A stretch of 64,000 nt of DNA from NCBI GenBank assembly GCA_001244265.2, contig LN717261.1:3363591-3427590 (forward strand). The letters run 5' to 3'. The notes beneath the pieces were generated by a model, which searched no databases, had not been told where the DNA came from, and saw nothing but the letters and a program-made list of their open reading frames with translations. The stretch comes from Microbotryum violaceum. Lineage: Eukaryota. The position numbers and the translations under genes were made by a program. Numbering within the stretch: position 1 is the stretch's first letter; the number at the start of each line of letters is the position of its first letter. Shown piece by piece: positions 3,901-58,122 of the stretch.

Positions 3901-5584
3901 CGCCGGCGTTTCCACAATGACGTAGTAATTCGACGATCGTAATGAGCGCCATCTTGTCCGTCGGTACGAGTTTCAAGAAAGGATCGATATCCGGGTCCTT
4001 GTTCCACGTATTACTGAACCCACCGAACGAAGTCGTATCCGACCGGATTGCCGCCACCTTTTTCCCCTTCTTTGACCGATTCGCCTGGGTCGTACTTCGT
4101 CCCGAATAAAATTGTTCATTCAAAGCGGCTTCCAAAGCTTTGGTCCATTCGAACATGACGCCTTGTAACCAATTCGATTGGAGTCCTCGTTCTTTATCCT
4201 TACCGACTTTGGCCAGTTGTTCCCTTTCGTGGATGTAGAGTTGTCGAGCTGCGTCGTAGGACGATTCTTCGAGTAACTGTTGACGATTCGCAGCGGAGAC
4301 GACACCATCCGGCACAGCCAAAGTCAATAAATTCGTTCGAAGCGTTTTGAGCGAAACTGAAACGTCGGGTGCTCCCCCTGATTCAGCAGAAGTTCTAGTC
4401 GTAGGTTCGATCTCGACCGGTTCGTTAAAAGTCGTGGTCGTGGTCGAGTGGGTCGAATTCGAACTCGTATGACGTTGAGATAACTTGGTTTCAATCTTTT
4501 TGAATTCGCTCCTCAATTCTTCAATCTCTTCCTCCCAAGCCTTCCATTCCTCCTGACCTTTACCCGTTTCAACGAGAGCGTTCAAAACTTGTAAAGGTGA
4601 AACTTTTCCCAAATAACTCGGTAATTCGACGTGCCAAATCGGATCGTTCAAAATATCCTTCAAACGTAATTGATGTTGTTCGACTTGATCCAATAAAGTG
4701 GTTAAAGGTTTGAGCCAAGGTTGGTTCTTACGCGTCGTTAAAGAGATTTCTTCCTTCGCTTTGGGTGTGGAAAGTGGTGAAGGATTGTAGATTGAGGGTC
4801 CGGAGGCAACGAGTCCTTTGAACATGACGGCTAGGACGGATTCGTCGATGGCGAGGTTCGTTTGAGTTGATTGATCCCACCATAGAGGGCGTTGTAAAGA
4901 GTCAAAGTAGGACCATGCTTTGACGACGTAATCGGACCTGACTAGATTGGACAAAGGTGTGGAAGGTGTTTCGGAAGGGGTAGGTACGAGAGCTTTGATG
5001 AGTGCGCTTGAGAGGTAGGCGCGAAGAAAGTCGGCGTGAACTCGAGGAGGTAAGAGAGTTGTGAGTGAATCGTTGCGATGGGTCAAGATTCTTCGGGCGA
5101 CTTCTTCGGCGCGGGTTAGGTCTCCCGAGGCGAGACAGGCGTTGAGAATCGCGAGTTGCTCCTGCGATTGAGTGGAAGTTGTCCAGTTTGCTGGGGTAGG
5201 ATGGGTCGAGGAGGAGGAGGAGGAGGAGGCGGAAGAGGCGGAAGAGGAGGAAGCGGTAGGAGCAAACTTGTCTGTTCGTTCGACATCGGCGGGTAAGGGG
5301 GGTGCCAAGGGGGGGAGTGGAGGGACAGAGTAGAGAGGATGGCCGGGCCTTTGGAAAAAGGCTTGGTTCGAGATCGAACTCGACGGTGGCGGTGGCGGTG
5401 GCGGTGGTGGGTGAGAGGAAGGGGAGGAAGAAGCGGGATCGACCGAGGCCGAAGGAGGCGCGAACCGGGTCGTGCTCGACGAAGCGAAACGGACGAGAAC
5501 CCGTGGCGAAGGAGAGCTCGAGCTCAAGGCGATCCTCGCAGCCGTGCGTAGCCTAGCCAACCGTCGATGTGACGACAAAAGCAT
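994..5584 (-). CDS. RPO41: Mitochondrial T7-like DNA-directed RNA polymerase
   Basis: Arg/Ser-rich presequence MLLSSHRRLARLR; motifs LDFRGRAYP, HQDGTCNGLQHYAAL, RKVVKQTVMTTVYGVT, SVHDSYWTHA; C-terminal YFFS. Introns 3333-3254 and 1560-1480. One apparent frameshift at ~1755 (FPPN). Confidence 0.97.
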
Positions 5585-6299
5585 GATCGTCGTCGTCTGT
5601 GGGAGAGAGTGCGCCGGGGTCAATCAGTCTACTGCACAGCGAGTAGATTCTCGATCACGGCGAATGCGAGCGAATATGTTGACCCAGATCATTCCAGACA
5701 GGCTCGATCGAGACTGAAACGTGGCGGTGCATTGTCAATGCAGGCGGGGTATGAGCAGTGACCGTCTCTGCAAAGGTGTGTGCGTAACCGGTGGGTGGCG
5801 GCCCATGCATGCAGTGTGGCCAGTGTGGCCAGTGTCGCCACCGTCGATCCGCTGACGACGACCGCTCCCGGGAAGGGGTGTAGAGCAGCAACATTCCTGA
5901 TCGATGCAGCTGACCTACCTAGTCGTACGCGTGCCTACTCACGATCGTCTCTTGTGCTAGAACGACGTGCGTTTTCCCAAACGGCCGAGGAAGGGAGGTG
6001 CGATCACTCCAAACAAGTCGGCTCCTTTCTCGTCGAGAGCTCAAAGTCGAGCAAAGTTGAGGAAACGATTGCGAAGCGCGCGAACCGAGTCAGATTCCGC
6101 TCGGCCGCCCAACCCGCTCCCGCTCCCGCTCCCGCTCCAAAAAAGGCAAGCGCTAATACTAATTGCAATAATTGGCTCATCGGTGACGCGCTCGATCTAA
6201 TGCGAAATTCGTTTCAACAGATCAACTTCGCACCCACTCGACCCAAGGCGGGCTGCTGCCCTCCTCTTTTTTTCTTCTTCTTCAGAAGTTGATCCTTCC

Positions 6300-7255
6300 C
6301 TCTCAATGAGAACAAAGTCAGTACCCCACCCTACCCCAGTAACCCCCCCATCTTCACAGCAGCCAATTCTGAAACACCCTTCTTCTTTGCTCTACAGTGA
6401 TGATACCTCCTTTGCGTGGAACTTTATGAACCTCGACCCATTTCGTCCTTCCGCGTTCCTGTTCACCCTCAATATCTCATCCCCCAACCCTTCCACTCTA
6501 CACCAAACGGGGCCGTCTCATCTCTTTAGAAAAAAAGGACCTCCTTCATTGTCGTAGGGCCTTTTTCTTCAAAACAGTTTTGAGCGACTTCCGGGAGTGG
6601 TACAGTTAAAGGAATTGAGATTCGTTTGGGGTGAGCAGGAGCGTTGGTCGTTTTTTTATTTTTTTTATTTGACTTGATGATGGGTTCGATATGTTCTCAT
6701 CCGCTCGCCACGTACCCTTTTAACCTTGTTTTTTAAAAAACAAAAGGAGCGGTCGTATGGATGGTCTGATTCTACCCTCACCTTTCCAGTTGGGTGGTGG
6801 GTCTCATTTGAGGGGGGAGGTGGTTCAACTTGTCGGTTTAGTTTGTTGTAGTCTTGTTTAGCATGTCTGCAAGGCCTCTTCTGTAAAGTTCATTCTCAAA
6901 AGTCTATAAAGAGATCTACGCCCCTAATTACGCCCTCGAAGAAGAAAAGACCGCAACGAGACAAAAAAGGAAAAGGGAAAGAAACAGCATGAGGGAAACC
7001 AAACTGGCGGATGATCCACATACCGTATCATTCCCTGCCCCCTTTCCACTCGAGACATTCTCTTCTTCAACAACACCCACCAAGTTGATCTTGTGATGAT
7101 CCGGTCTCTTTTGAAAGAGAAAGGATGTGGGTAGGCACCTGTGGTAGTGGGCGATTGAGGAAGTTCTTCAGAGAAGCGCTTCACACGTGGAGAGAGGAGG
7201 AGAAAGCGCAAACGGCGTGCTGGGGGGGCGTGGCGTGCTGGGGGTTAGGGTTCGC
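6300..7255 (-). ncRNA. Candidate structured long non-coding RNA (identity unknown; telomerase-RNA candidate)
   Basis: No credible ORF. Several long irregular hairpins pair via G-U only on the minus strand; AACCCTAACCC at 7252-7242. Confidence 0.4.
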
Positions 7256-7354
7256 ATTAGCTTCGATTAGCTCATAGCTTTCAAAGTTGGACTTTGTGCC
7301 ACACCGTCTGGGTTTACTTTTGGGGCTCGGCATTCACCAAAAGTAGTCGAGTTT

Positions 7355-10300
7355 TTACACAAATACATAATTCATAAATACAGCTACGTCCAAATCATCC
7401 CTCTCGAACGTCGAAATGTGTTCGCAACAGATGAACGACGTAGTCGGTCGCTCGGGCGTCGATAGTACCTCGTCGGGGAGAAGATCGGAAACGAGTCGAT
7501 CAACTGAGCAAGAGTAGGTCAGGGCCGCGTGTTCGACGATCGATCGAACGAGTTTGAAAATTTCGAGAAAACTCACTTTGCTCCTGTGTAAGACCCGGTT
7601 TGTGCAAGACTTTCAAGCTCAACAATCCCGCTTCTGAACTTGAAGGCAGATCACGACGAGCTCGGGAGAAATTGCAGGTCATCGATCCGCCGACCAGGAT
7701 CGTCAAGAGGTGGGACGAAGGGCTCGTTTTGGAGTATTTGAGGACGACATCACTCGATTGAGTTGTAGGATCTGTCAAAAGTACCGTCAGACTTCAGCAG
7801 CGCGTCTGCTGTGAGTGGCGAACAGGATCATAAAAACTTACCTCGTTCCAACCATTTCGTCCTTCCCACCTCCTTGATTATGCTAGACCCTTCATCATCC
7901 TCCACTTCACTCTCCCCTTCATCGTCCTGTTCGTCCCTTACGCCTGACTCCCAACATACCTGCCACTCAATCTTTGCTCCCTTCGGTAACGCCTCGGCAC
8001 TGACGAACAAGAGCGGTACGCGGTCTACCTCATCCCCGTCTTCCTCGACGACATCTTCCTCTTCCTCCTCATCCTCGTTCTCATCTAACGCATCCTCCTT
8101 ACCTCCCCTTCGCAAAAATCCATACCCAACCCTCCAACCCTTCCTAGCCCCCTCCAAACGTCGCCCATAACTCCTCCCCAACCCCTCCTCTCCACTACTA
8201 CCCCCCCTCTCCCTCAAAATCCAACACAAACCACACAAAGCCCTACCCCCCCTCCCCTCTCCCAAACTATAACCCCTCTTCCCAATCGAAACAACTAAAA
8301 CCCTCCTCAAATGTTGTAAACTCAAACTCGTCTCTACCGCGAAAATCTCTTCCCCTTCAACCTCCTCCTTCTTCTTCTTCTCAAATCCTCGATCCTCATC
8401 CTCGATCGTTATTGTAGTAGATAGAGGTAATTCCAAAGATTGTGGAATCAACCCAATTTGACCGGCTAAGTAAATCGATTTACCACCATTAACGATAACG
8501 GATTGTGAATAAGGTCCTATATTAGCTGAAGCCCAATAGGAAATTGATTGAACGTGAACGTTCTTTCGATCGGTTTGTTCGGAGTTCATTTCGAGGAGGG
8601 GTGAAGTTGGGTCGGAGTGGGAGTAAAGTTGAGGTGATGGAGTGGTTGAGGTTCTTGTGTCGTGTGATTGGTTGTGATTATATGCTATACCTTCTAATTT
8701 AATTCTAGGTGAACCTAGTTCTTCCTCCTCCGATGGGAAAAGTATTCCAACGCAAACTCTCGTAGGAGGTGCCGTACCGAAATAAGTCGAATAGACTTGA
8801 TTGATCTTGGGGAAAAGGTTCATCGTTTTAGGTGATAGGTAGAGATTTAAATGGGTTAGGTGTAGGAGTGTTGAGGATTTTTGGGAGAGGAGTTGAATTA
8901 AGGATTTGAAGAGTTGGGTTGTTTCGGATTCGATTGGGAGGGTGGAGGAGGAGTTGGTGGAGTAGTGTGAGAGGTTGGAAAAGTGTAGCCATGGACCGAT
9001 GGTCGTAATGGTTGGTGAGGAGGGGGACGAGTTGGTCAAAATTTTAGCGCGATCCGATTCAGAGGCTCGCGCGTTGAGAGAAAGGATTTCGAGCGCGGTC
9101 GAATTTCGATAGGCTTCCCTAACGGCACGGTAGATCTTTAAGCTTGATCGATCCAACATTGGAGGAACGGTCACCAGTGATCGAAGACGGGCTCGTAGTT
9201 GTTCTAACGTCTCGTTTTGAGGATGATTCGGTTTGGGTTCGAGGATGCATTCGTCGAGGTGGAGGTGTGCGATGGTCGAATACGGGTCCGAGTTGGAGAT
9301 GATGGTTGTGGTCTTCTTACTGCTCGTAGGGGGACATTGGCATACATACAAGCGGTCAGCTGTCAACCCAGGGAATGATGAATAGAGACTGGATCCGAAC
9401 GGTACGTACAAGACGATACGCGATTTATAGATGGGACAATCGACTGTAAAGGTCTCGTATTCCCCGCCTTCGCCGCAGACGTGTAGTTCGTACTTTTTGT
9501 TCTGTAGGGTCGCGAGATAGGATGCAAGTCAGCGCGGATTAATTTCCACTCGATGGGAAGGTGAAGATTCTCTTACCAAGCGATGCAAGGTTGGTTCCAT
9601 CTGCTTCAATGATCGACCGAGGTGTTCGACGCCCAAACTAGACAGTTCTCGATGTGCAGGTTCAGTATTCCGATCTCAATCCTTCGGGCAAGATGTTGAA
9701 AAATTCCTCACCCAGCACCAGCGACTTTGACCAAGACGCTCTCCATCCCCGCTCGAACCATCTCGCCCAATAGGTCGGTTTGATTCCTGTCCCACAAGTA
9801 AGCGATGGGTACGAGGCCAAGTCTTGAGCAGCTTTCGTAGAAAGTAGGAAGTGCAAACCGTTAGCAGGAAATTGACTGCAAAACCGTTTCTGTGAGATCA
9901 TCACTTACACCTGCTCGACTCGTACTCGCTGATAGTTGGAGAGGATAGCGCCGACTGCTACGCCTTGAACGGTCGGTTCTTTTTCCTGCATGATTGGATC
10001 ACACAGGAATCAAACCCCGACTGTTATCCCGTGTAAATTTTCATTCAACCAACTGACCTTGACATCCCTCAACAATTCGTACATATCCTCCGTCTCATCC
10101 TTATCTTCCCCCGACTTGGACTCGGAAGCCAAAGTCGATGCGGAGCTCGAAGCTTGCCCAGTTCGAGAACCGTACGAATTGGCTCGATGGATCGCTGTGC
10201 CCGTGATGATTCGGGTGTAGAAAGGAAGGGATAGGGATTCGGCGATGAGGGATAGACCGGAATGAGCGACGGTTTGGTACATGTACGAGTCGAGCTCGTC

Positions 10301-45436: not shown

Positions 45437-46528
45437 TGATGTGTAGAGTGTGTGTTCAAAGGGGGCTCTCAAAGCAATGCAGTTGCTAGCGTACTATCTT
45501 TGGTTGCGCCTGCAGCATAACGACCGAACCTCGGAAGAAATTGTTCAGGAAGCCTCGAGCGCACCTGTCCATGGCCAGCAGCCGGGGGTTGGCCGACGTC
45601 GGTCTCGGCGAACCGAATTGCCGGCGGTCGGGGACAGTGGTTCGTACATATTGTGGCATGTATGCATTATCTAGCAAGTGTCTACCTCCGTTACCATCTC
45701 TGACGTGTAGCCGGATGGTTTGGATCGTTGGCGTCCAAATCATCCGCAGCTGCCGCGCGTGCTCCGCTTCCTCAAGTCCTTCGAGAGCGTTCCAACTCCT
45801 TGACGTCTTCTTCGTCCTGTCCCTGATCCTCGTCTTGTTCCTCTTCGTTTCGACGTTTGCCAAGGTTCCTCTTGTAAATGATCTGTTGGCTTCTGTTAGG
45901 GTTTTGATCGGTCTTCTTGCTTCTTGACGGGCCCGGGCCTCTAGAGCCGGTCATCCGATGTGACCGCAAGGAAACATGTCGATTCTGCAAGGGCCGAGGG
46001 AGAAGTGATTGGTCAGCGCGCAAGCGAGCGCACAATCAAGGTAAGGACCGGCGCGTGTTACTTACATACTTGACGATTCCTATTGCTTCGAAGCAGCATG
46101 TTCCTCCACAATAGTGTAGGTGCTTGTTCTGGCACAGACGAGTCTGCGCGCGTCCTTGGGATAATGTTCTTCGGGCAGTTGCTAGCTGTGAGACCATTCC
46201 AAGCCGAGCTCCGCAAGCGGCCCATACACCTGGACCGGAACAGGTGTTCTAATCTCTGCCGCTACTGCATCACCTACTGGGTCGAGGAATGTTACGAGTG
46301 GTGCAGGGAAGTCAGAGCTAGTCGGTGGTCGGGTTCTGCTCGTTGAAATTGCCGGGACCTACGCGAAGCCGATCTTAAGGGACGTTGTCAGTTTGGTCGT
46401 GCTTGCAAGTATACTCACACAAGCTCATATCGCCTTTGTCGTTTCGTACGTACATGCCATCCGCATCGAGGTACTTTCTGGCTGCAGGAAGTGGACCGAG
46501 GCGACACGTCAGCGAAAAGTTGGCCGAC

Positions 46529-47099: not shown

Positions 47100-48401
47100 T
47101 CAACCGTTAATGGTCACGCGCGTCGCAAGCAAGAATTATCTGACCTCTTCTCTGTGAGCTGATGCACCTGAGTGCAGATGCTGCCTTGCAAATGGCTTGT
47201 TCGCGGTTTCCTCGCTTCTCTTATCTCATCAGTGTACCGGCACTGAGGAGGTATCCCTAGTGCAAGCGGATGGAGCTCGAGCACATGCACAAGACAACTC
47301 CCAGGCGCTCCCTCGTGAACGCGAAGGAGCCGATCGTGTCGAACGTTTTGGTCAACTTTTGGCGATTTATGAGTTCCGATAGGGAGAGCAGGTGCGCGCA
47401 TTCGCACCTGATTGTGCCAGGTGGACCTACGACCCTCACACGTTCCTATTGCTTCACAGAACTACCTACTTGGGAAGGTACGGTCGCTTGGTTTGAGCCA
47501 CTTGCAACCCGTCTACGACGCGATCGAACAGGCCCCGATTGCCAAGCCGACGCCAAAGCGGCAAAAGCGGAAGGCTGTGTCTCCTGTAGGAGCGCAAAAG
47601 CATCAGAACTTGTGCTTCACTCAAGTTCAACATGCTTCAGGAGCGGTCGAGATTGTGGATTTGCGGTGCATCCTGGCCTCAGCTGGTCGCATACATCGGA
47701 GGGTTGGTCGGGAGGAGTCTCGGCAGTACATCTTTGACCACATGGATGATGAAGCTCGGCCTAATTTTATGAACCTGGAATAATACACTGGCTTCCTTCA
47801 CTCGTCTGTTTCATCCACTGCCAGAGGCAAGAGTGTTACAGAGAAGTTCTAGACATCCGTGGGTGGTATTGCGGTGGTAATAAACCCCAAACCCGGTAAC
47901 AACTACGCTGCACGTACGGAAACCCGGAGGCCGGGGCAAGCCATCCAAGCAGATATTACCCATGTCAAAGTTAATACCCAGCTGGGGGTATTACCGCGCG
48001 CCTGGGTATTACCCCGTTCAGCTGGGTATTAACCCCGTTCAGCTGGGTATTAATCCCGTTCAACTGGGTATTAACCCCGTTCAGCTGGGTATTAACCCCC
48101 AGGTGGGTATTACCCCTCAACTGGTTATTACCCGCAAGCTGGGTATTACCCAGAGAGATGAGTAATACCCGGCTGGGGGTTATTACCGCGCGCCCGGGTA
48201 TTCCCCGTCGGCTGGGTATTACCCAGGGAGATGAGTAATACCCGTCAGAGAGTCAATGCCCGGCGTGGGGTTAAAACCGCGCGTCTGGGTATTACCCGTC
48301 GGCTGGGTATTACCCAGGCGCGCTCGGGACAATACCCAGGTGAGACCTGGGTAATACCCTTCAGAATGGGTGGTATTACCGGAATTAACCGACCCTCAGT
48401 G
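47100..48401 (+). mobile_element. Degenerate CACTA/EnSpm-like transposon 3' end
   Basis: Broken frames FGQLLAIYEF...VEIVDLRCILASAGRIHRR...QYIFDH resembling basidiomycete CACTA transposase C-termini; subterminal repeat array; ends in CAGTG (CACTG on the minus strand). Confidence 0.55.
47955..48385. repeat. Array of CTGGGTATTA(A)CCC motifs in both orientations, including a 21-bp tandem unit
   Basis: cagctgggtattaaccccgtt-type unit about four times, plus many gggtattaccc / gtaataccc copies. Confidence 0.9.
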
Positions 48402-49291
48402 GCAGCGCGACTGCTCCCGATGGGTTACCTGAAGTACTTGGACTTGTAATTGCTTCCGCAGAAATTATATGAAAGCACTTTACGTCGCTTTCTGCCCTAT
48501 ACACCGTTTCGGCATCAAGTGTAGTGACTATGACTTAGTGCAGGCCTGACCCGGGGCAACGTGGCTCCCGCCGGGAACAATGTTTCTACCGGCTCAGGAT
48601 GCCCGATCCGATAGGGTTTTATCGCCGCTGCGCGGCGCGATTAAGATCGTCCCTTCTTTAAGTTGTCTGCCCGAGGTGCAGTCAGGTCCCGGTGGGTACC
48701 AAGGTAGATGCACCGGGAATTCGGAAGGTTTTAGGTTCAGGCTAGAGAGGTGGGTACCGGGCAACGCTGCACTCAGCGCTGGGCACTCCCGAGTCCCAAC
48801 CCTCTCGACCCTTGGTTACTGACTAGACTCGAGGGCACGGCGCGTGACCACGACCGGTTCGTCGGTCGGGTCAGGGATGGGCTATTATTAGGTCCCGCTC
48901 GGCAACTCATGGGCTTGCTTGTGACTGACCTACCCTCACTTCCCGACATCCGCCTCTGAAACCTTAATGGTTAAAGGAGGTGGTTGTAGGACGGGCTTTT
49001 GAATCCACTTCCTTCCTTTCTCTCTTCCACACCACCCCTACCCCCCAGTCTCCTCCACATCCCGAACAAGTCTTGCCCCTCTCTAACTCTCAACCGACCC
49101 CTAAAGCCAGGTCACCGACTTACCGTCTGGTCCTCTCCATTAGTCTCCACTCGCCTCGTCGCGCTCTTTTATAGCTTCCTACCCTCGTTGTGAGTCTTTC
49201 TTCCAGAACAAATCCGAGTCCCTTTGCTCGTGCAAGACCACTGACTCGGACCTGCCCGTTCCTGCCACGCTATCACCTCACTGCCTGCGTC

Positions 49292-55910: not shown

Positions 55911-58122
55911 GGACCAAGGGGTGGGCAGAGCGGAGGAGTAAAGGGGACAAGTTGGCGAGGGAGGTGGTCTGGGTTTGGGTCGATGCGGACCAGTGGATGG
56001 GGTGGCTGAAGGGGATGTACTTGGTCAACTGGGGGAAGCGACCGGGAATCGTCGTCTCGGACCCAAAAGTAGGTTGTCCAGCCTTTTCTTGGATTTTCGC
56101 GTCGAGTTATTGATGGGCATCGTACCTGCCCCTTCTCACACAGGAACTGGCCTATTGGAACCGCGATCTCTCGTTCGAGCCCATCACGTCGGACACTGTG
56201 TACGAGACGATCGAGCAAGGGATTCTGACCAACCGGTTGAAACCTCTGAGCTCGAGATCATTATTTGATCGACTAGCACATGTGAGCCTGAACTCTGTCG
56301 AGTCCAAACGTTCCCCTCCTGCCCCGGCGACTGATTCATTTCGATTAGCGCCTCGCGCTTCTTACCGACTCGTCATTCAAGTCGTACTTCTCCTCCCATC
56401 CTTTCGCCCTCGTTTTCTTCATCATCTCATCGTGGGTGGCCGGATGGTGAATCCTGCGACAATGCCTGGGAGGAGATGGGGGTGCCTCTCTCATGGGTGG
56501 GAGTAGCGGGCCGGCGGGTGCGAGCGGTAAAGGCGGGACTGTTGTGGGAAATTAGTAAAGGGTCAGCGGTCCAGAGGGACTTGTGGCATTGGGAAGTTGG
56601 CGCGCGCGTGGCGCGGCGCCGGATGGAGGCAGATGGCGGTGTGGCGTATTGATTGGACTCAGAGGTGGCTTGTACGCGGATACTATCTAAGGCTCTGGTC
56701 TCGTTCACTCTCTCCTTCTTCTTTAACACACACTCGATATCTATCTCGCCCATTCGCCTGCTACAAGTTGATTGACCTTGGCGATACTCTATCTCACAAT
56801 AGGTCATCTATCAACGCCGTGTAGCTACAGCGAATCTTCATTCATTCATTGGTACTCCAAGTCCAAATCCACAACAGGGACGGCCAAATACGAGTGAAGG
56901 GGCATCAAGCCCTCTGAAAGTTCCCTTGTATATCGTAACGGTGTGTAATGATGACGCACATCTCGCATGCGCCCGAGCGGTCAAACTTTCGTGACATAAA
57001 CACCAAGTCAAAAACTGTCGGGGCGAGGCAGGCCATATAGATATGCTTCAACAATCGCAAGTTGTTCATCTCTCGAACTTGACCACGCAAGGTCAAGTGG
57101 TCTACTGAAGTTCAATTTGACCGAACCAGCGAGGATCCGTGATCGTGCAGCACAGCAGTGGAGATCCTGGTAGGAGTCGCGGAATGAAATAGTGGGGCAA
57201 ATCGAGGTTCGCACGGACTCGCCTTTTCGGGGCCAGTGTCATGTCAAAGCCGCGAGCGATTCCGCACTTGCGTCAGCCATGTGTAAACGATGTGTCGGCC
57301 ATATTCTTCTTCATCCCCTCTGTTTGCTGAGGTGTCACCAACCCGTCAGATAATGCCAAGTTTTGCCGCTTTTGCCATCAACATGTCGGCGTATTCTTGG
57401 AAGCGTTGGGAGGTTTCAACGAGCGTTGTAAATACAGAGCCGAGCTCAAGGCAACTTTGAGACGGTCCTCAAATGACACCCTTCTTCTCTCTTTTTTAAT
57501 GTAGAACTTGTTCATCATATTGCGCCCGGTTCATGTTCCCCCTATTTGGCCTATGGAAAAACGAGATGGAAGTCGACGATGATAACACAAACCGCCCGCA
57601 AGATGCAAGAAACGGGCCGGTGTCCACCAATACGATACTTGATTCGAAGTGCCCCAGCCAAGCGGTTGCTCCCCCTCAGGAGACGAATGAGAGAGAGAAG
57701 GAGAGAGAGAGAGAGAGAAAGAAAAAGACCTGGCGTACTAACGACAAGAGGCCCACCCCGCACCCACTTCCCAACTCGGTCGAGACACAGACAGGAGAGC
57801 GACTGCGCAGCCACCCTAACCCGCGAAGCCCCAAGTCTATGCTCGGTCACAACAAGACGCGGTGGAGGCCCCTGAAAAGATCCACTTCAGCACTCCCTGA
57901 CCCCTCAAATCCGACTTTCTGCCTGTGTATGCTGATCCCTCCCTTGACTCAGAACCCCGAAGCCGAAGAGCGCGAGCCACCGTCGAGTCAAAGCTAAATC
58001 GCGAGCCGGTCTATGAGCTACGGAAGCAGACCTGTAATAGATGAAAGATGAAAGCAAGATATTTAGTATACAGGTTTTTTCCCGCGCAAGCCGAAGAACT
58101 ATGCGGATCACTAAAGCAACTC

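What the first reader, a model, noticed from the sequence alone, without database searches (positions are those of the whole stretch)
6300..7255. Structured ~0.9-kb non-coding region directly 3' of DPH6, starting with a telomere-template-like motif
Seen on the minus strand: AACCCTAACCC (7252-7242) ~100 nt after the DPH6 stop. A three-way junction follows at ~7133-7075 (ACCCAC/GTGGGT closing an ATCC..GGAT arm and a 4-bp stem with 5-nt loop, CAAG-ATCAA-CTTG). Then a long hairpin ~7070-6936 (GATACGGTATG/CATGCTGTTTC; TTGAAGAAGAGA/TTTTCTTCTTCGA), a second ~6650-6433 (CGACC/GGTCG, ATCTCA/TGAGAT, CCACTC/GAGTGG), and a long-range helix TGAGAATGAA(6898)/TTTGTTCTCA(6307). Many pairs are G-U on this strand and would be A-C on the other. 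Known: Ustilago maydis telomerase RNA is processed from a protein-coding mRNA precursor; CR4/5 is a junction with a 4-bp/5-nt P6.1; yeast Tbf1 binds AACCCTAA-like boxes at snoRNA promoters. Inference: a telomerase RNA, or another lncRNA under a telo-box promoter. Caveats: no pseudoknot identified, and the P6.1-like loop lacks the usual G.
Basis: partly seen in the sequence, partly recalled or inferred. Interest (0 to 1): 0.8.

Follow-up and report, generated by a model that had tools for sequence, protein, structure and literature searches.

The report
Unannotated spliced lncRNA locus, not telomerase RNA
The gap between the DPH6 and RPO41 genes of an anther-smut fungus (Microbotryum) is transcribed into a spliced non-coding RNA read from the strand opposite to the one proposed, and the telomere-like motif beside it fails the tests for a telomerase RNA template.

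Summary
The window is Microbotryum lychnidis-dioicae-like DNA. DPH6 matches MVLG_03729 and RPO41 matches MVLG_03728, so no gene is annotated between them.

The motif AACCCTAACCC(C) is at 7252-7241 (-), 103 nt after the DPH6 stop.

- **Beyond chance:** the long hairpin 6930-7075. On the minus strand z = -6.2, with 15 G-U among 56 pairs; on the plus strand z = -2.1. The second hairpin, 6425-6660, has z about -4 on both strands.
- **Not beyond chance:** the "CR4/5-like" junction (z = -1.8 on both strands). The long-range helix is one of 53 such helices.

Spliced public contigs, identical to the window, cover 5919-7184. They carry two introns of plus-strand polarity, 6317-6397 (GT..AG) and 6146-6220 (GC..AG, inferred). 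So at least the RPO41-proximal part is a plus-strand spliced RNA, head-to-head with RPO41. It has no ATG ORF longer than 56 aa and no Rfam match.

The telomerase RNA hallmarks are not met. The loop AUCAA does not fit NUNGN, the junction sits beside the motif rather than distal to it, and no pseudoknot was found. No relatives' DNA could be obtained for covariation.

Verdict: a real unannotated lncRNA locus. Telomerase RNA about 4%. A second, minus-strand lncRNA under a telo-box promoter stays open at about 30%.

The parts
7355..7503 (-). Last exon of DPH6 (diphthine-ammonia ligase, MVLG_03729-like), with stop TAA at 7357-7355
   Evidence: tblastn of P0001 ends at 7358. A contig shows the minus-polarity intron 7504-7576. 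Pfam finds Ribonuc_L-PSP in the large exon.
7241..7252 (-). Telomere-like motif AACCCTAACCCC. On the plus strand it reads as G-strand telomere sequence.
   Evidence: The species' telomere repeat is TTAGGG (PMC4469406 passage).
7184..7240 (-). Promoter-like cluster on the minus strand: CCAGCACGCC twice, a 19-nt CT-rich tract, and CACGTG at 7189-7184
   Evidence: Read directly. A promoter role is inference only.
7075..7133 (.). Three-way junction with the 4-bp / 5-nt stem-loop CAAG-AUCAA-CUUG
   Evidence: It is the MFE fold on both strands, but z = -1.80 and -1.85. Not beyond chance.
6930..7075 (-). Long hairpin A: 56 pairs, 15 of them G-U. Stable only on the minus strand.
   Evidence: Weak shape-only Rfam hits to miRNA precursors, far below gathering scores.
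6425..6660 (.). Long hairpin B: about 77 pairs, equally stable on both strands
6545..6766 (.). A 222-nt stretch that is the only part held, at word depth 29-36, in two very small RNA-like runs. The ends are identical in both runs.
   Evidence: X1, X2. It does not fold better than shuffles on either strand. No Rfam match.
6398..7184 (+). Last contiguous transcribed block: exon 3 of the plus-strand RNA. The part right of about 6766 may belong to a second transcript.
   Evidence: Contig pieces 6398-7180 and 6398-7184. The strand of the right-hand part is not shown.
6317..6397 (+). Intron 2 of the plus-strand RNA: GTCAGT...CTGAAAC...TCTACAG
   Evidence: Joint 6316|6398 in 2 of 2 spliced runs, ends GT..AG on the plus strand, no ambiguity.
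6221..6316 (+). Exon 2 of the plus-strand RNA. It holds the first ATG, at 6306, of a 56-aa ORF.
6146..6220 (+). Intron 1 of the plus-strand RNA (GC..AG, 75 nt), inferred
   Evidence: 39 record letters lie between contig pieces that end at 6104 and start at 6219. Of the three possible cut positions, only plus-strand GC..AG fits a known splice class. The tool dropped this joint row because of the repeat at 6105-6144.
5919..6145 (.). Shared 5' region: RPO41 exon 1 (minus, 5' UTR) overlapping exon 1 of the plus-strand RNA. It includes a (CCGCTC)4 microsatellite.
   Evidence: Contig continuity between a minus-polarity intron and a plus-polarity intron. There is no ATG on the plus strand in 5919-6145.
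5597..5918 (-). 322-nt intron in the RPO41 5' UTR (GTAGGT...CACAG). The RPO41 ATG lies about 12 nt downstream, at about 5584.

Best explanation
The DPH6-RPO41 interval of this Microbotryum genome is an unannotated non-coding transcription unit, not a telomerase RNA gene.

**Shown**
- RNA-like contigs identical to the window cover 5919-7184.
- They are spliced at two introns whose ends are canonical only on the plus strand.
- So a plus-strand RNA starts head-to-head with, and overlapping, the first (5' UTR) exon of RPO41, and runs towards DPH6.
- It has no credible ORF and no known RNA-family match.

**Inferred**
- It is a divergent lncRNA sharing the RPO41 promoter region. It probably has a polyadenylation site near 6766, and either a longer form or a second transcript reaching 7184.
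- If it acts at all, it most likely acts in cis, through transcription across or next to the RPO41 5' region, or as a hairpin-bearing RNA that could feed the fungus's RNAi machinery.
- The telomere-like motif is a DNA-level feature, either a Myb/Tbf1-type boundary or promoter site or a chance match. It is not an RNA template.
For: **Identity of the flanks**
- The DPH6 ORF is 98% identical to MVLG_03729, and RPO41 is 99% identical to MVLG_03728. Both are from M. lychnidis-dioicae p1A1 Lamole; exon-level tblastn identity ranges from 50% to 100%, with the exons flanking the interval at 98-100%.
- The locus tags are consecutive, so no gene is annotated between them (inference).

**Transcripts**
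- 2 of 2 spliced runs (X9, X10) give one contig with 0 differing letters.
- It joins RPO41 | minus-polarity intron 5597-5918 | 5919-6104... | 6219-6316 | plus-polarity GT..AG intron 6317-6397 | 6398-7180 or 7184.
- Both plus-strand introns have branch-point-like and polypyrimidine-CAG features.
- X1 and X2 each hold a 222-nt contig, 6545-6766, at word depth 29-36.

**No coding potential**
- The longest ATG ORF of the spliced plus-strand RNA is 56 aa. On the minus strand of 7184-6398, 44 aa is the longest ATG ORF.
- The 52-aa exon-3 peptide has 1 hit at E <= 0.001 among 1.84 billion representatives. That hit is a 351-aa protein matched in 6 stretches, which I read as low-complexity.

**No known RNA family**
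- Rfam E-value scans of 5500-8000 and 6480-6830 gave only sub-threshold chance-level hits.

**Not a repeat**
- No second copy within the 64 kb. No marked CpG depletion.

**Background from papers**
- RNAi genes are present and expressed in this species (PMC4469406 passage).
- In yeast, Tbf1 sites act as promoter boundaries (PMC4551913 passages).
Against: - The contigs are unstranded. Only the introns give polarity, so the strand of 6398-7184, which holds the junction and hairpin A, is not shown.
- Hairpin A is strongly minus-strand-specific. This fits a functional minus-strand RNA better than a plus-strand one.
- The plus strand just before 7184 has no AT-rich 3'-end-like context, whereas the minus strand there looks like a start site (CT-rich tract, CACGTG) (my reading).
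- Intron 1 is inferred from record coordinates through a masked repeat.
- The RNA nature of X9 and X10 is inferred from splicing; the run records do not state it.
- No function of the lncRNA was tested.
Confidence: 0.6

Rival explanations
1. Two convergent non-coding RNAs. Besides the plus-strand spliced RNA, which would end near 6766, a second unspliced minus-strand lncRNA starts at about 7184-7180. That start lies roughly 60 nt downstream of the telo-box, directly after a CT-rich tract and CACGTG. This RNA carries the junction and hairpin A and ends near 6545.
For: - Hairpin A is stable only on the minus strand: z = -6.2 against -2.1, 15 G-U pairs, 12 of 12 arm transitions in the minus-favouring direction, and second most extreme locus of 5,322 window-strands.
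- The motif cluster on the minus strand at 7252-7184 looks like a promoter. CT-rich tracts before fungal start sites and ARCCCTAA Tbf1 sites are recalled knowledge. The Tbf1-snoRNA promoter link was seen as a passage in PMC4551913.
- The 222-nt contig has identical ends in 2 of 2 small runs. That would fit the overlap of two convergent 3' ends (inference).
Against: - No strand-resolved evidence for any minus-strand RNA here.
- One plus-strand RNA reaching 7184 explains the contigs equally well.
- The hairpin's asymmetry could come from a G-rich purine tract facing a U-rich pyrimidine tract. However, shuffles that preserve each arm still gave 0 of 300 as stable.
Confidence: 0.3
2. Telomerase RNA on the minus strand, processed from a DPH6 read-through precursor, with AACCCUAACCC as its template. 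This would parallel Ustilago (Emi1 mRNA) and the proposal for Malassezia (NDK1).
For: - The motif is 11 nt, that is 1.8 repeats, complementary to the TTAGGG telomere of this species.
- It lies 103 nt after a coding gene's stop. Basidiomycete telomerase RNAs are reported or proposed to derive from the transcript of an upstream coding gene (PMC9564094 abstract and passages; PMC12506658 sections 10 and 15).
- Long helical arms are typical of fungal telomerase RNAs (recalled).
- A 4-bp / 5-nt stem-loop sits in a three-way junction.
- Only 1 paper in the held library has both 'telomerase RNA' and 'Pucciniomycotina'. The only passage shown for 'Pucciniomycotina' in it (its single occurrence) is a tree legend, so that RNA appears undescribed for this subphylum.
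Against: - Plus-strand splice polarity across 6146-6397, inside the proposed RNA.
- The loop AUCAA does not fit 5'-NUNGN-3'.
- The junction folds no better than shuffles on either strand.
- The junction lies 108 nt after the motif, with no U-run of four or more in between. The conserved order is template, then pseudoknot, then distal junction.
- No pseudoknot was identified.
- The global fold pairs the motif itself with a G-rich stretch at 6320-6350.
- About 86 such 11-mers are expected by chance in a 26-Mb genome (my arithmetic).
Confidence: 0.04
3. Hairpin-RNA (microRNA-like or siRNA) precursor locus: hairpin A and/or hairpin B are cut by Dicer into small RNAs.
For: - Two long, nearly continuous hairpins of 56 and about 77 pairs lie inside a transcribed non-coding block.
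- The species has one Dicer, two Argonautes and one RdRP, all expressed (PMC4469406 passage).
- cmscan gave shape-only sub-threshold hits to miRNA precursor models.
Against: - No small-RNA data could be examined.
- The Rfam hits are far below gathering scores (29 bits against 150).
- Hairpin A needs a minus-strand transcript, which has not been shown.
Confidence: 0.1
4. A small-protein mRNA: the plus-strand RNA encodes the 56-aa ORF that starts at the transcript's first ATG (6306) and stops at 6555-6557. That would leave a 3' UTR of about 210 nt if the RNA ends near 6766.
For: - There is no ATG in 5919-6145 or in exon 2 before 6306.
- The ORF crosses intron 2 in frame.
Against: - No meaningful homologue among 1.84 billion representatives.
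- No annotated gene in the reference.
- Long open frames are common in all frames here.
- I did not run Pfam on this peptide.
Confidence: 0.08

Closest known systems
Divergent (bidirectional-promoter) and antisense lncRNAs of fungi
   Same: Spliced, unannotated, and without coding potential. It starts head-to-head with a protein-coding gene (RPO41) and converges on the neighbouring gene (DPH6).
   Different: It holds two unusually long hairpins. One stretch of it (6545-6766) is held at notable depth in very small runs that hold neither neighbouring gene within the laid stretch. No function is known.
Ustilago maydis telomerase RNA (UmTER), processed from the 3' UTR of the Emi1 mRNA (PMC9564094)
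   Same: A template-like CCCTAA-type motif lies shortly after a coding gene's stop, in a long, structured non-coding stretch of a basidiomycete with TTAGGG telomeres.
   Different: - The upstream gene differs (DPH6, not Emi1).
- No pseudoknot was found, the P6.1 loop does not fit the consensus, and the junction is template-proximal.
- Splice polarity shows an RNA of the opposite strand.
- UmTER homologues were reported only in Ustilaginales, Urocystidales and Violaceomycetales (passage).
- The supplementary lists of that paper could not be seen.
Tbf1-type TTAGGG/ARCCCTAA sites at promoters and promoter boundaries in yeast (PMC4551913; Preti et al. 2010, seen only as a reference in that paper)
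   Same: A single telomere-like box in a gene-flanking, non-telomeric position, next to a CACGTG (Cbf1-type) box.
   Different: The organism is a basidiomycete in which no such factor or site has been tested. The site lies between two converging transcribed blocks rather than in a classical divergent promoter. The window shows no enrichment: 14 telomere-like 8-mer positions against about 12 expected (my arithmetic).

Membership tests
Telomerase RNA (TER) | Template complementary to at least about 1.5 telomere repeats | tested here: met
   AACCCTAACCC is 11 nt. The telomere repeat of M. lychnidis-dioicae is TTAGGG (PMC4469406 passage).
Telomerase RNA (TER) | The template lies inside a stable RNA transcribed from the template-bearing strand | tested here: inconclusive
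   Only unstranded contigs were available. Splice polarity shows a plus-strand RNA at 6105-6398 and beyond. No strand information exists for 6398-7184, and no read data for the motif itself.
Telomerase RNA (TER) | Template-proximal pseudoknot with a U-rich loop forming a triple helix (PMC3592445 passages) | tested here: inconclusive
   The 108 nt between the motif and the junction (7240-7134) hold no U-run longer than 3. U- and A-runs exist further on (6745-6650), but no pseudoknot search or covariation test was possible.
Telomerase RNA (TER) | Template-distal three-way junction (CR4/5) with a 4-bp P6.1 stem and a 5-nt loop 5'-NUNGN-3' | tested here: not met
   The 4-bp stem and 5-nt loop are present, but the loop is AUCAA: U at position 2, A instead of G at position 4. 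The junction is proximal to the motif. Its z is -1.8 on both strands.
Telomerase RNA (TER) | Conservation and covariation of the core helices among relatives | not testable with these tools
   No genome is held for this window. The first metagenome scan found nothing. The second gave 4 RPO41 loci; 0 of 4 have DPH6 on the stretch held, and 0 of 4 hold a telomere-like 9-mer.
Telomerase RNA (TER) | Association with TERT, and templating of telomere repeats | not testable with these tools
   This needs an experiment.
Long non-coding RNA | Transcribed, longer than 200 nt, processed like an mRNA, and without credible coding potential | tested here: met
   Spliced contigs cover 5919-7184. The longest ATG ORF is 56 aa. 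There is no meaningful homologue and no annotated gene.
microRNA-like / hairpin siRNA precursor | A long hairpin in a transcript that yields discrete Dicer-dependent small RNAs | tested here: inconclusive
   The hairpins are present and significant. Small RNAs were not testable.
Tbf1-type telo-box DNA site | A match to the TTAGGG / ARCCCTAA core in a nucleosome-free promoter or boundary, bound by a Myb-type factor | tested here: inconclusive
   The core motif is present (the consensus is recalled). Binding and chromatin state are not testable here.

The most novel reading that the evidence does not exclude
The minus strand of this interval encodes the first telomerase RNA of the Pucciniomycotina. 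It would be cut out of a DPH6 read-through transcript. It would have an atypical layout, with the junction before the pseudoknot and a P6.1 loop without the conserved G, and it would be overlapped by an antisense spliced RNA.
Probability: 0.04. Interest if true: 0.8.

Novelty: new member of a known kind. Interest (0 to 1): 0.2.

Why it matters
If the telomerase RNA reading were right, it would give the first such RNA for a whole fungal subphylum. It would also be a third case of a basidiomycete telomerase RNA made from a coding gene's transcript. The evidence here makes that unlikely.

What remains is smaller:
- An unannotated, spliced lncRNA head-to-head with the mitochondrial RNA polymerase gene of a well-studied plant-castrating fungus.
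- One strongly strand-specific long hairpin in an organism with active RNAi.

Both are useful for annotation and are a cheap target for strand-specific RNA and small-RNA mapping. Neither is surprising in kind.

Tried and rejected
- **Whole genome:** none is held for this window. I could not check telomeres, copy number, or the Emi1 and NDK1 loci.
- **Sequencing runs:** no RNA holder is listed on record. X9 and X10 are taken as RNA only because their contigs are spliced.
- **Uncovered stretch:** no laid contig covers 7185-7308 in X9 or 7181-7352 in X10, and the motif lies there. I therefore do not count it for or against a template role or a start site.
- **X1/X2 library type:** the mean contig length is 242-248 nt (2,937 records with 0.71 M letters; 4,356 records with 1.08 M letters). 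This made me suspect shallow or 3'-end-biased RNA libraries. That is a guess.
- **The 222-nt piece:** its strand and the meaning of its sharp ends are unresolved. Its left end coincides with the apex of hairpin B.
- **Rfam:** nothing at gathering level except two tRNAs elsewhere in the window. E-value scans gave only chance-level hits: MIR840 at 29 bits against 150, and Thr_leader at 20 bits against 55.
- **snoRNA features:** I read C/D and H/ACA box features by eye around 6545-6775 and found no convincing terminal stems or box spacing. The piece folds no better than shuffles.
- **Relatives' DNA:** the metagenome scan with DPH6 found no relative. The scan with an RPO41 alignment gave 4 loci at 46-57% identity, none with DPH6 nearby. 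No covariation test was possible.
- **Transposon or repeat:** no second copy in the window, only one trivial inverted pair, and no clear RIP-like CpG depletion. Genome-wide copy number was not tested.
- **Earlier findings of this scan:** nothing relevant.
- **Literature:**
  - 7 papers hold both 'Microbotryum' and 'telomerase', of which 5 were listed. None concerns the RNA subunit, judging by title and abstract start.
  - The mixed search listed 12 of 699 papers, none with the term 'telomerase RNA'.
  - One search was too broad to be useful.
- **Supplements:** those of PMC9564094 (the 18 basidiomycete homologues and the synteny figure) are closed. They may say whether Pucciniomycotina were searched.

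Full report
**Where we are**

The large minus-strand ORFs on either side of the finding are a diphthine-ammonia ligase (DPH6) and the mitochondrial RNA polymerase (RPO41).

- The DPH6 ORF is 98% identical to MVLG_03729. The RPO41 ORF is 99% identical to MVLG_03728. Both are from Microbotryum lychnidis-dioicae p1A1 Lamole; exon-level tblastn identity ranges from 50% to 100%, with the exons flanking the interval at 98-100%.
- The window is therefore this anther-smut fungus or a near-identical strain (Pucciniomycotina).
- The locus tags are consecutive, so the reference annotation has no gene between the two (inference).
- The species' telomere repeat is TTAGGG, and it has an expressed RNAi machinery (PMC4469406 passages).

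**Observation**

- AACCCTAACCCC lies at 7252-7241 on the minus strand, 103 nt after the DPH6 stop at 7357-7355.
- CCCTAACCC occurs twice in the window against 0.36 expected. 4 of 100 shuffles gave two or more.
- Telomere-like stretches of 9 nt or more occur at three places in 64 kb.

The structures differ in how far they exceed chance.

| Element | Minus strand | Plus strand |
|---|---|---|
| Three-way junction (7072-7140) | z = -1.80 (10 of 200 shuffles as good) | z = -1.85 (8 of 200) |
| Hairpin A (6930-7075) | -63 kcal/mol, z = -6.2 (0 of 200; arm-wise shuffles 0 of 300) | -32.9 kcal/mol, z = -2.1 (8 of 200) |
| Hairpin B (6425-6660) | z = -4.29 | z = -4.00 |
| Whole 956 nt (20 shuffles) | z = -2.95 | z = -2.63 |

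- The junction is the MFE fold but is no better than chance on either strand.
- Hairpin A is the real signal. 15 of its 56 pairs are G-U, and all 12 transition differences between its arms favour the minus strand.
- Hairpin A is the second most extreme locus among 5,322 window-strands.
- Hairpin B is symmetric and is built mostly of Watson-Crick pairs.
- The long-range helix is one of 53 helices of 10 bp or more in this RNA, so it carries no weight.

**Transcripts**

One call of read laying was allowed. Two runs (X9, X10; one study) gave contigs identical to the window that skip introns, so they are RNA-like.

One contig of about 5.6 kb runs as follows:
1. From RPO41 across a 322-nt intron of minus polarity (5597-5918, GTAGGT..CACAG).
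2. Through 5919-6104 and a masked microsatellite.
3. Across a 75-nt gap that fits only a plus-strand GC..AG intron (6146-6220). This is inferred from the record coordinates.
4. Through 6219-6316.
5. Across an 81-nt intron with unambiguous plus-strand GT..AG ends (6317-6397).
6. Then unbroken to 7180 (X10) or 7184 (X9).

What follows from this:
- The RPO41 start codon lies about 12 nt after the first intron, at about 5584, so exon 1 of RPO41 is 5' UTR.
- A contig that carries introns of both polarities must merge overlapping transcripts. These are the RPO41 mRNA (minus) and a plus-strand spliced RNA whose first exon overlaps RPO41's first exon.
- The proposed telomerase RNA would run antisense to this RNA. 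Its long-range helix at 6307 would sit in the plus-strand RNA's exon 2.
- The strand of the block 6398-7184 is not shown.
- Two very small runs (X1, X2; another study) each hold only a 222-nt contig, 6545-6766, at word depth 29-36, with identical ends.
- That piece folds no better than shuffles and matches no Rfam family. I cannot say which strand it is, or why its ends are sharp.

**Coding and family tests**

- The spliced plus-strand RNA has no ATG ORF above 56 aa. On the minus strand of 7184-6398, 44 aa is the longest ATG ORF.
- The 52-aa exon-3 peptide has one weak, multi-stretch hit among 1.84 billion representatives.
- Rfam gives nothing meaningful.
- There is no second copy in the window and no clear RIP signature.

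**Telomerase RNA test**

The defining features come from passages of PMC3592445 and PMC9564094. They are a template; a template-proximal triple-helix pseudoknot; and a template-distal junction with a 4-bp P6.1 stem and a loop 5'-NUNGN-3'.

- The template feature is met.
- The loop here is AUCAA, so the G is missing.
- The junction starts 108 nt after the motif, and no U-run of four or more lies in between.
- The junction is not significant and not strand-specific.
- No pseudoknot is apparent.
- A 26-Mb genome should hold about 86 telomere-like 11-mers by chance (my arithmetic).

In favour:
- Basidiomycete telomerase RNAs are reported (Ustilago, Emi1) or proposed (Malassezia, NDK1) to come from the transcript of an upstream coding gene.
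- No such RNA seems described for Pucciniomycotina. Only 1 paper holds both terms, and the only passage shown for 'Pucciniomycotina' in it (its single occurrence) is a tree legend.

Covariation could not be tested. No genome is held. The four metagenome RPO41 loci lack DPH6 and lack telomere-like 9-mers. I put the telomerase RNA reading at about 4%.

**Best reading**

- **Shown:** an unannotated spliced plus-strand lncRNA that starts head-to-head with RPO41.
- **Inferred:** it shares the RPO41 promoter region and may act in cis or carry Dicer substrates.
- **The motif:** it is then a DNA-level site or a chance match. In yeast, Tbf1 sites mark promoter boundaries and snoRNA promoters (PMC4551913 passages).

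**Main rival, about 30%**

A second, minus-strand lncRNA would begin near 7184, behind a CT-rich tract, a CACGTG box and the telo-box, and would carry the minus-specific hairpin A. The strand asymmetry of hairpin A is the best argument for it. Only stranded data can decide.

**Novelty and interest**

A real but ordinary kind of feature: a new lncRNA locus with an unusually strand-specific hairpin. Interest 0.2.

Noticed in passing
window 47950-48430: A dense array of about 21-nt repeats built around the palindromic core GGGTATTACCC, with many direct and inverted copies. It is the most stable-folding locus of the whole window on both strands. It could be a satellite or a cluster of binding sites.
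   Followed up: partly
window 4825-5584 (-): The reference RPO41 model (MVLG_03728, 1,223 aa) starts at window 4825. The ORF continues upstream to an ATG at about 5584 with a presequence-like N-terminus (MLLSSHRRLARLR...). That ATG sits 12 nt after a spliced 5' UTR intron. Homologues of 1,226-1,329 aa in other Microbotryomycetes cover 81-98% of the longer query. The annotated model looks N-terminally truncated by about 250 aa.
   Followed up: partly
window 6545-6766: A 222-nt contig with identical ends is the only part of the laid 2.4 kb held in two very small runs, at word depth 29-36. Its left end coincides with the apex of hairpin B. Strand and meaning are unresolved.
   Followed up: partly
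window 45895-45903 (-) and 57813-57822 (+): Two further telomere-like stretches, AACCCTAAC and ACCCTAACCC. Their position relative to genes was not worked out.
   Followed up: no
window 6113-6138: A (CCGCTC)4 microsatellite lies in the region shared by the first exons of RPO41 and the plus-strand RNA. It made the read tool mask 6105-6144.
   Followed up: no
window 20662-20733 (-) and 22545-22616 (+): Two tRNA genes, the only Rfam matches at gathering level in the window.
   Followed up: no
L002 and L004 (metagenome loci): Environmental Microbotryomycetes-like RPO41 genes (53-57% identity) show no DPH6 on the stretch held upstream: 10 kb in L002 and about 4.3 kb in L004. The DPH6-RPO41 adjacency is therefore not general in the class.
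   Followed up: partly
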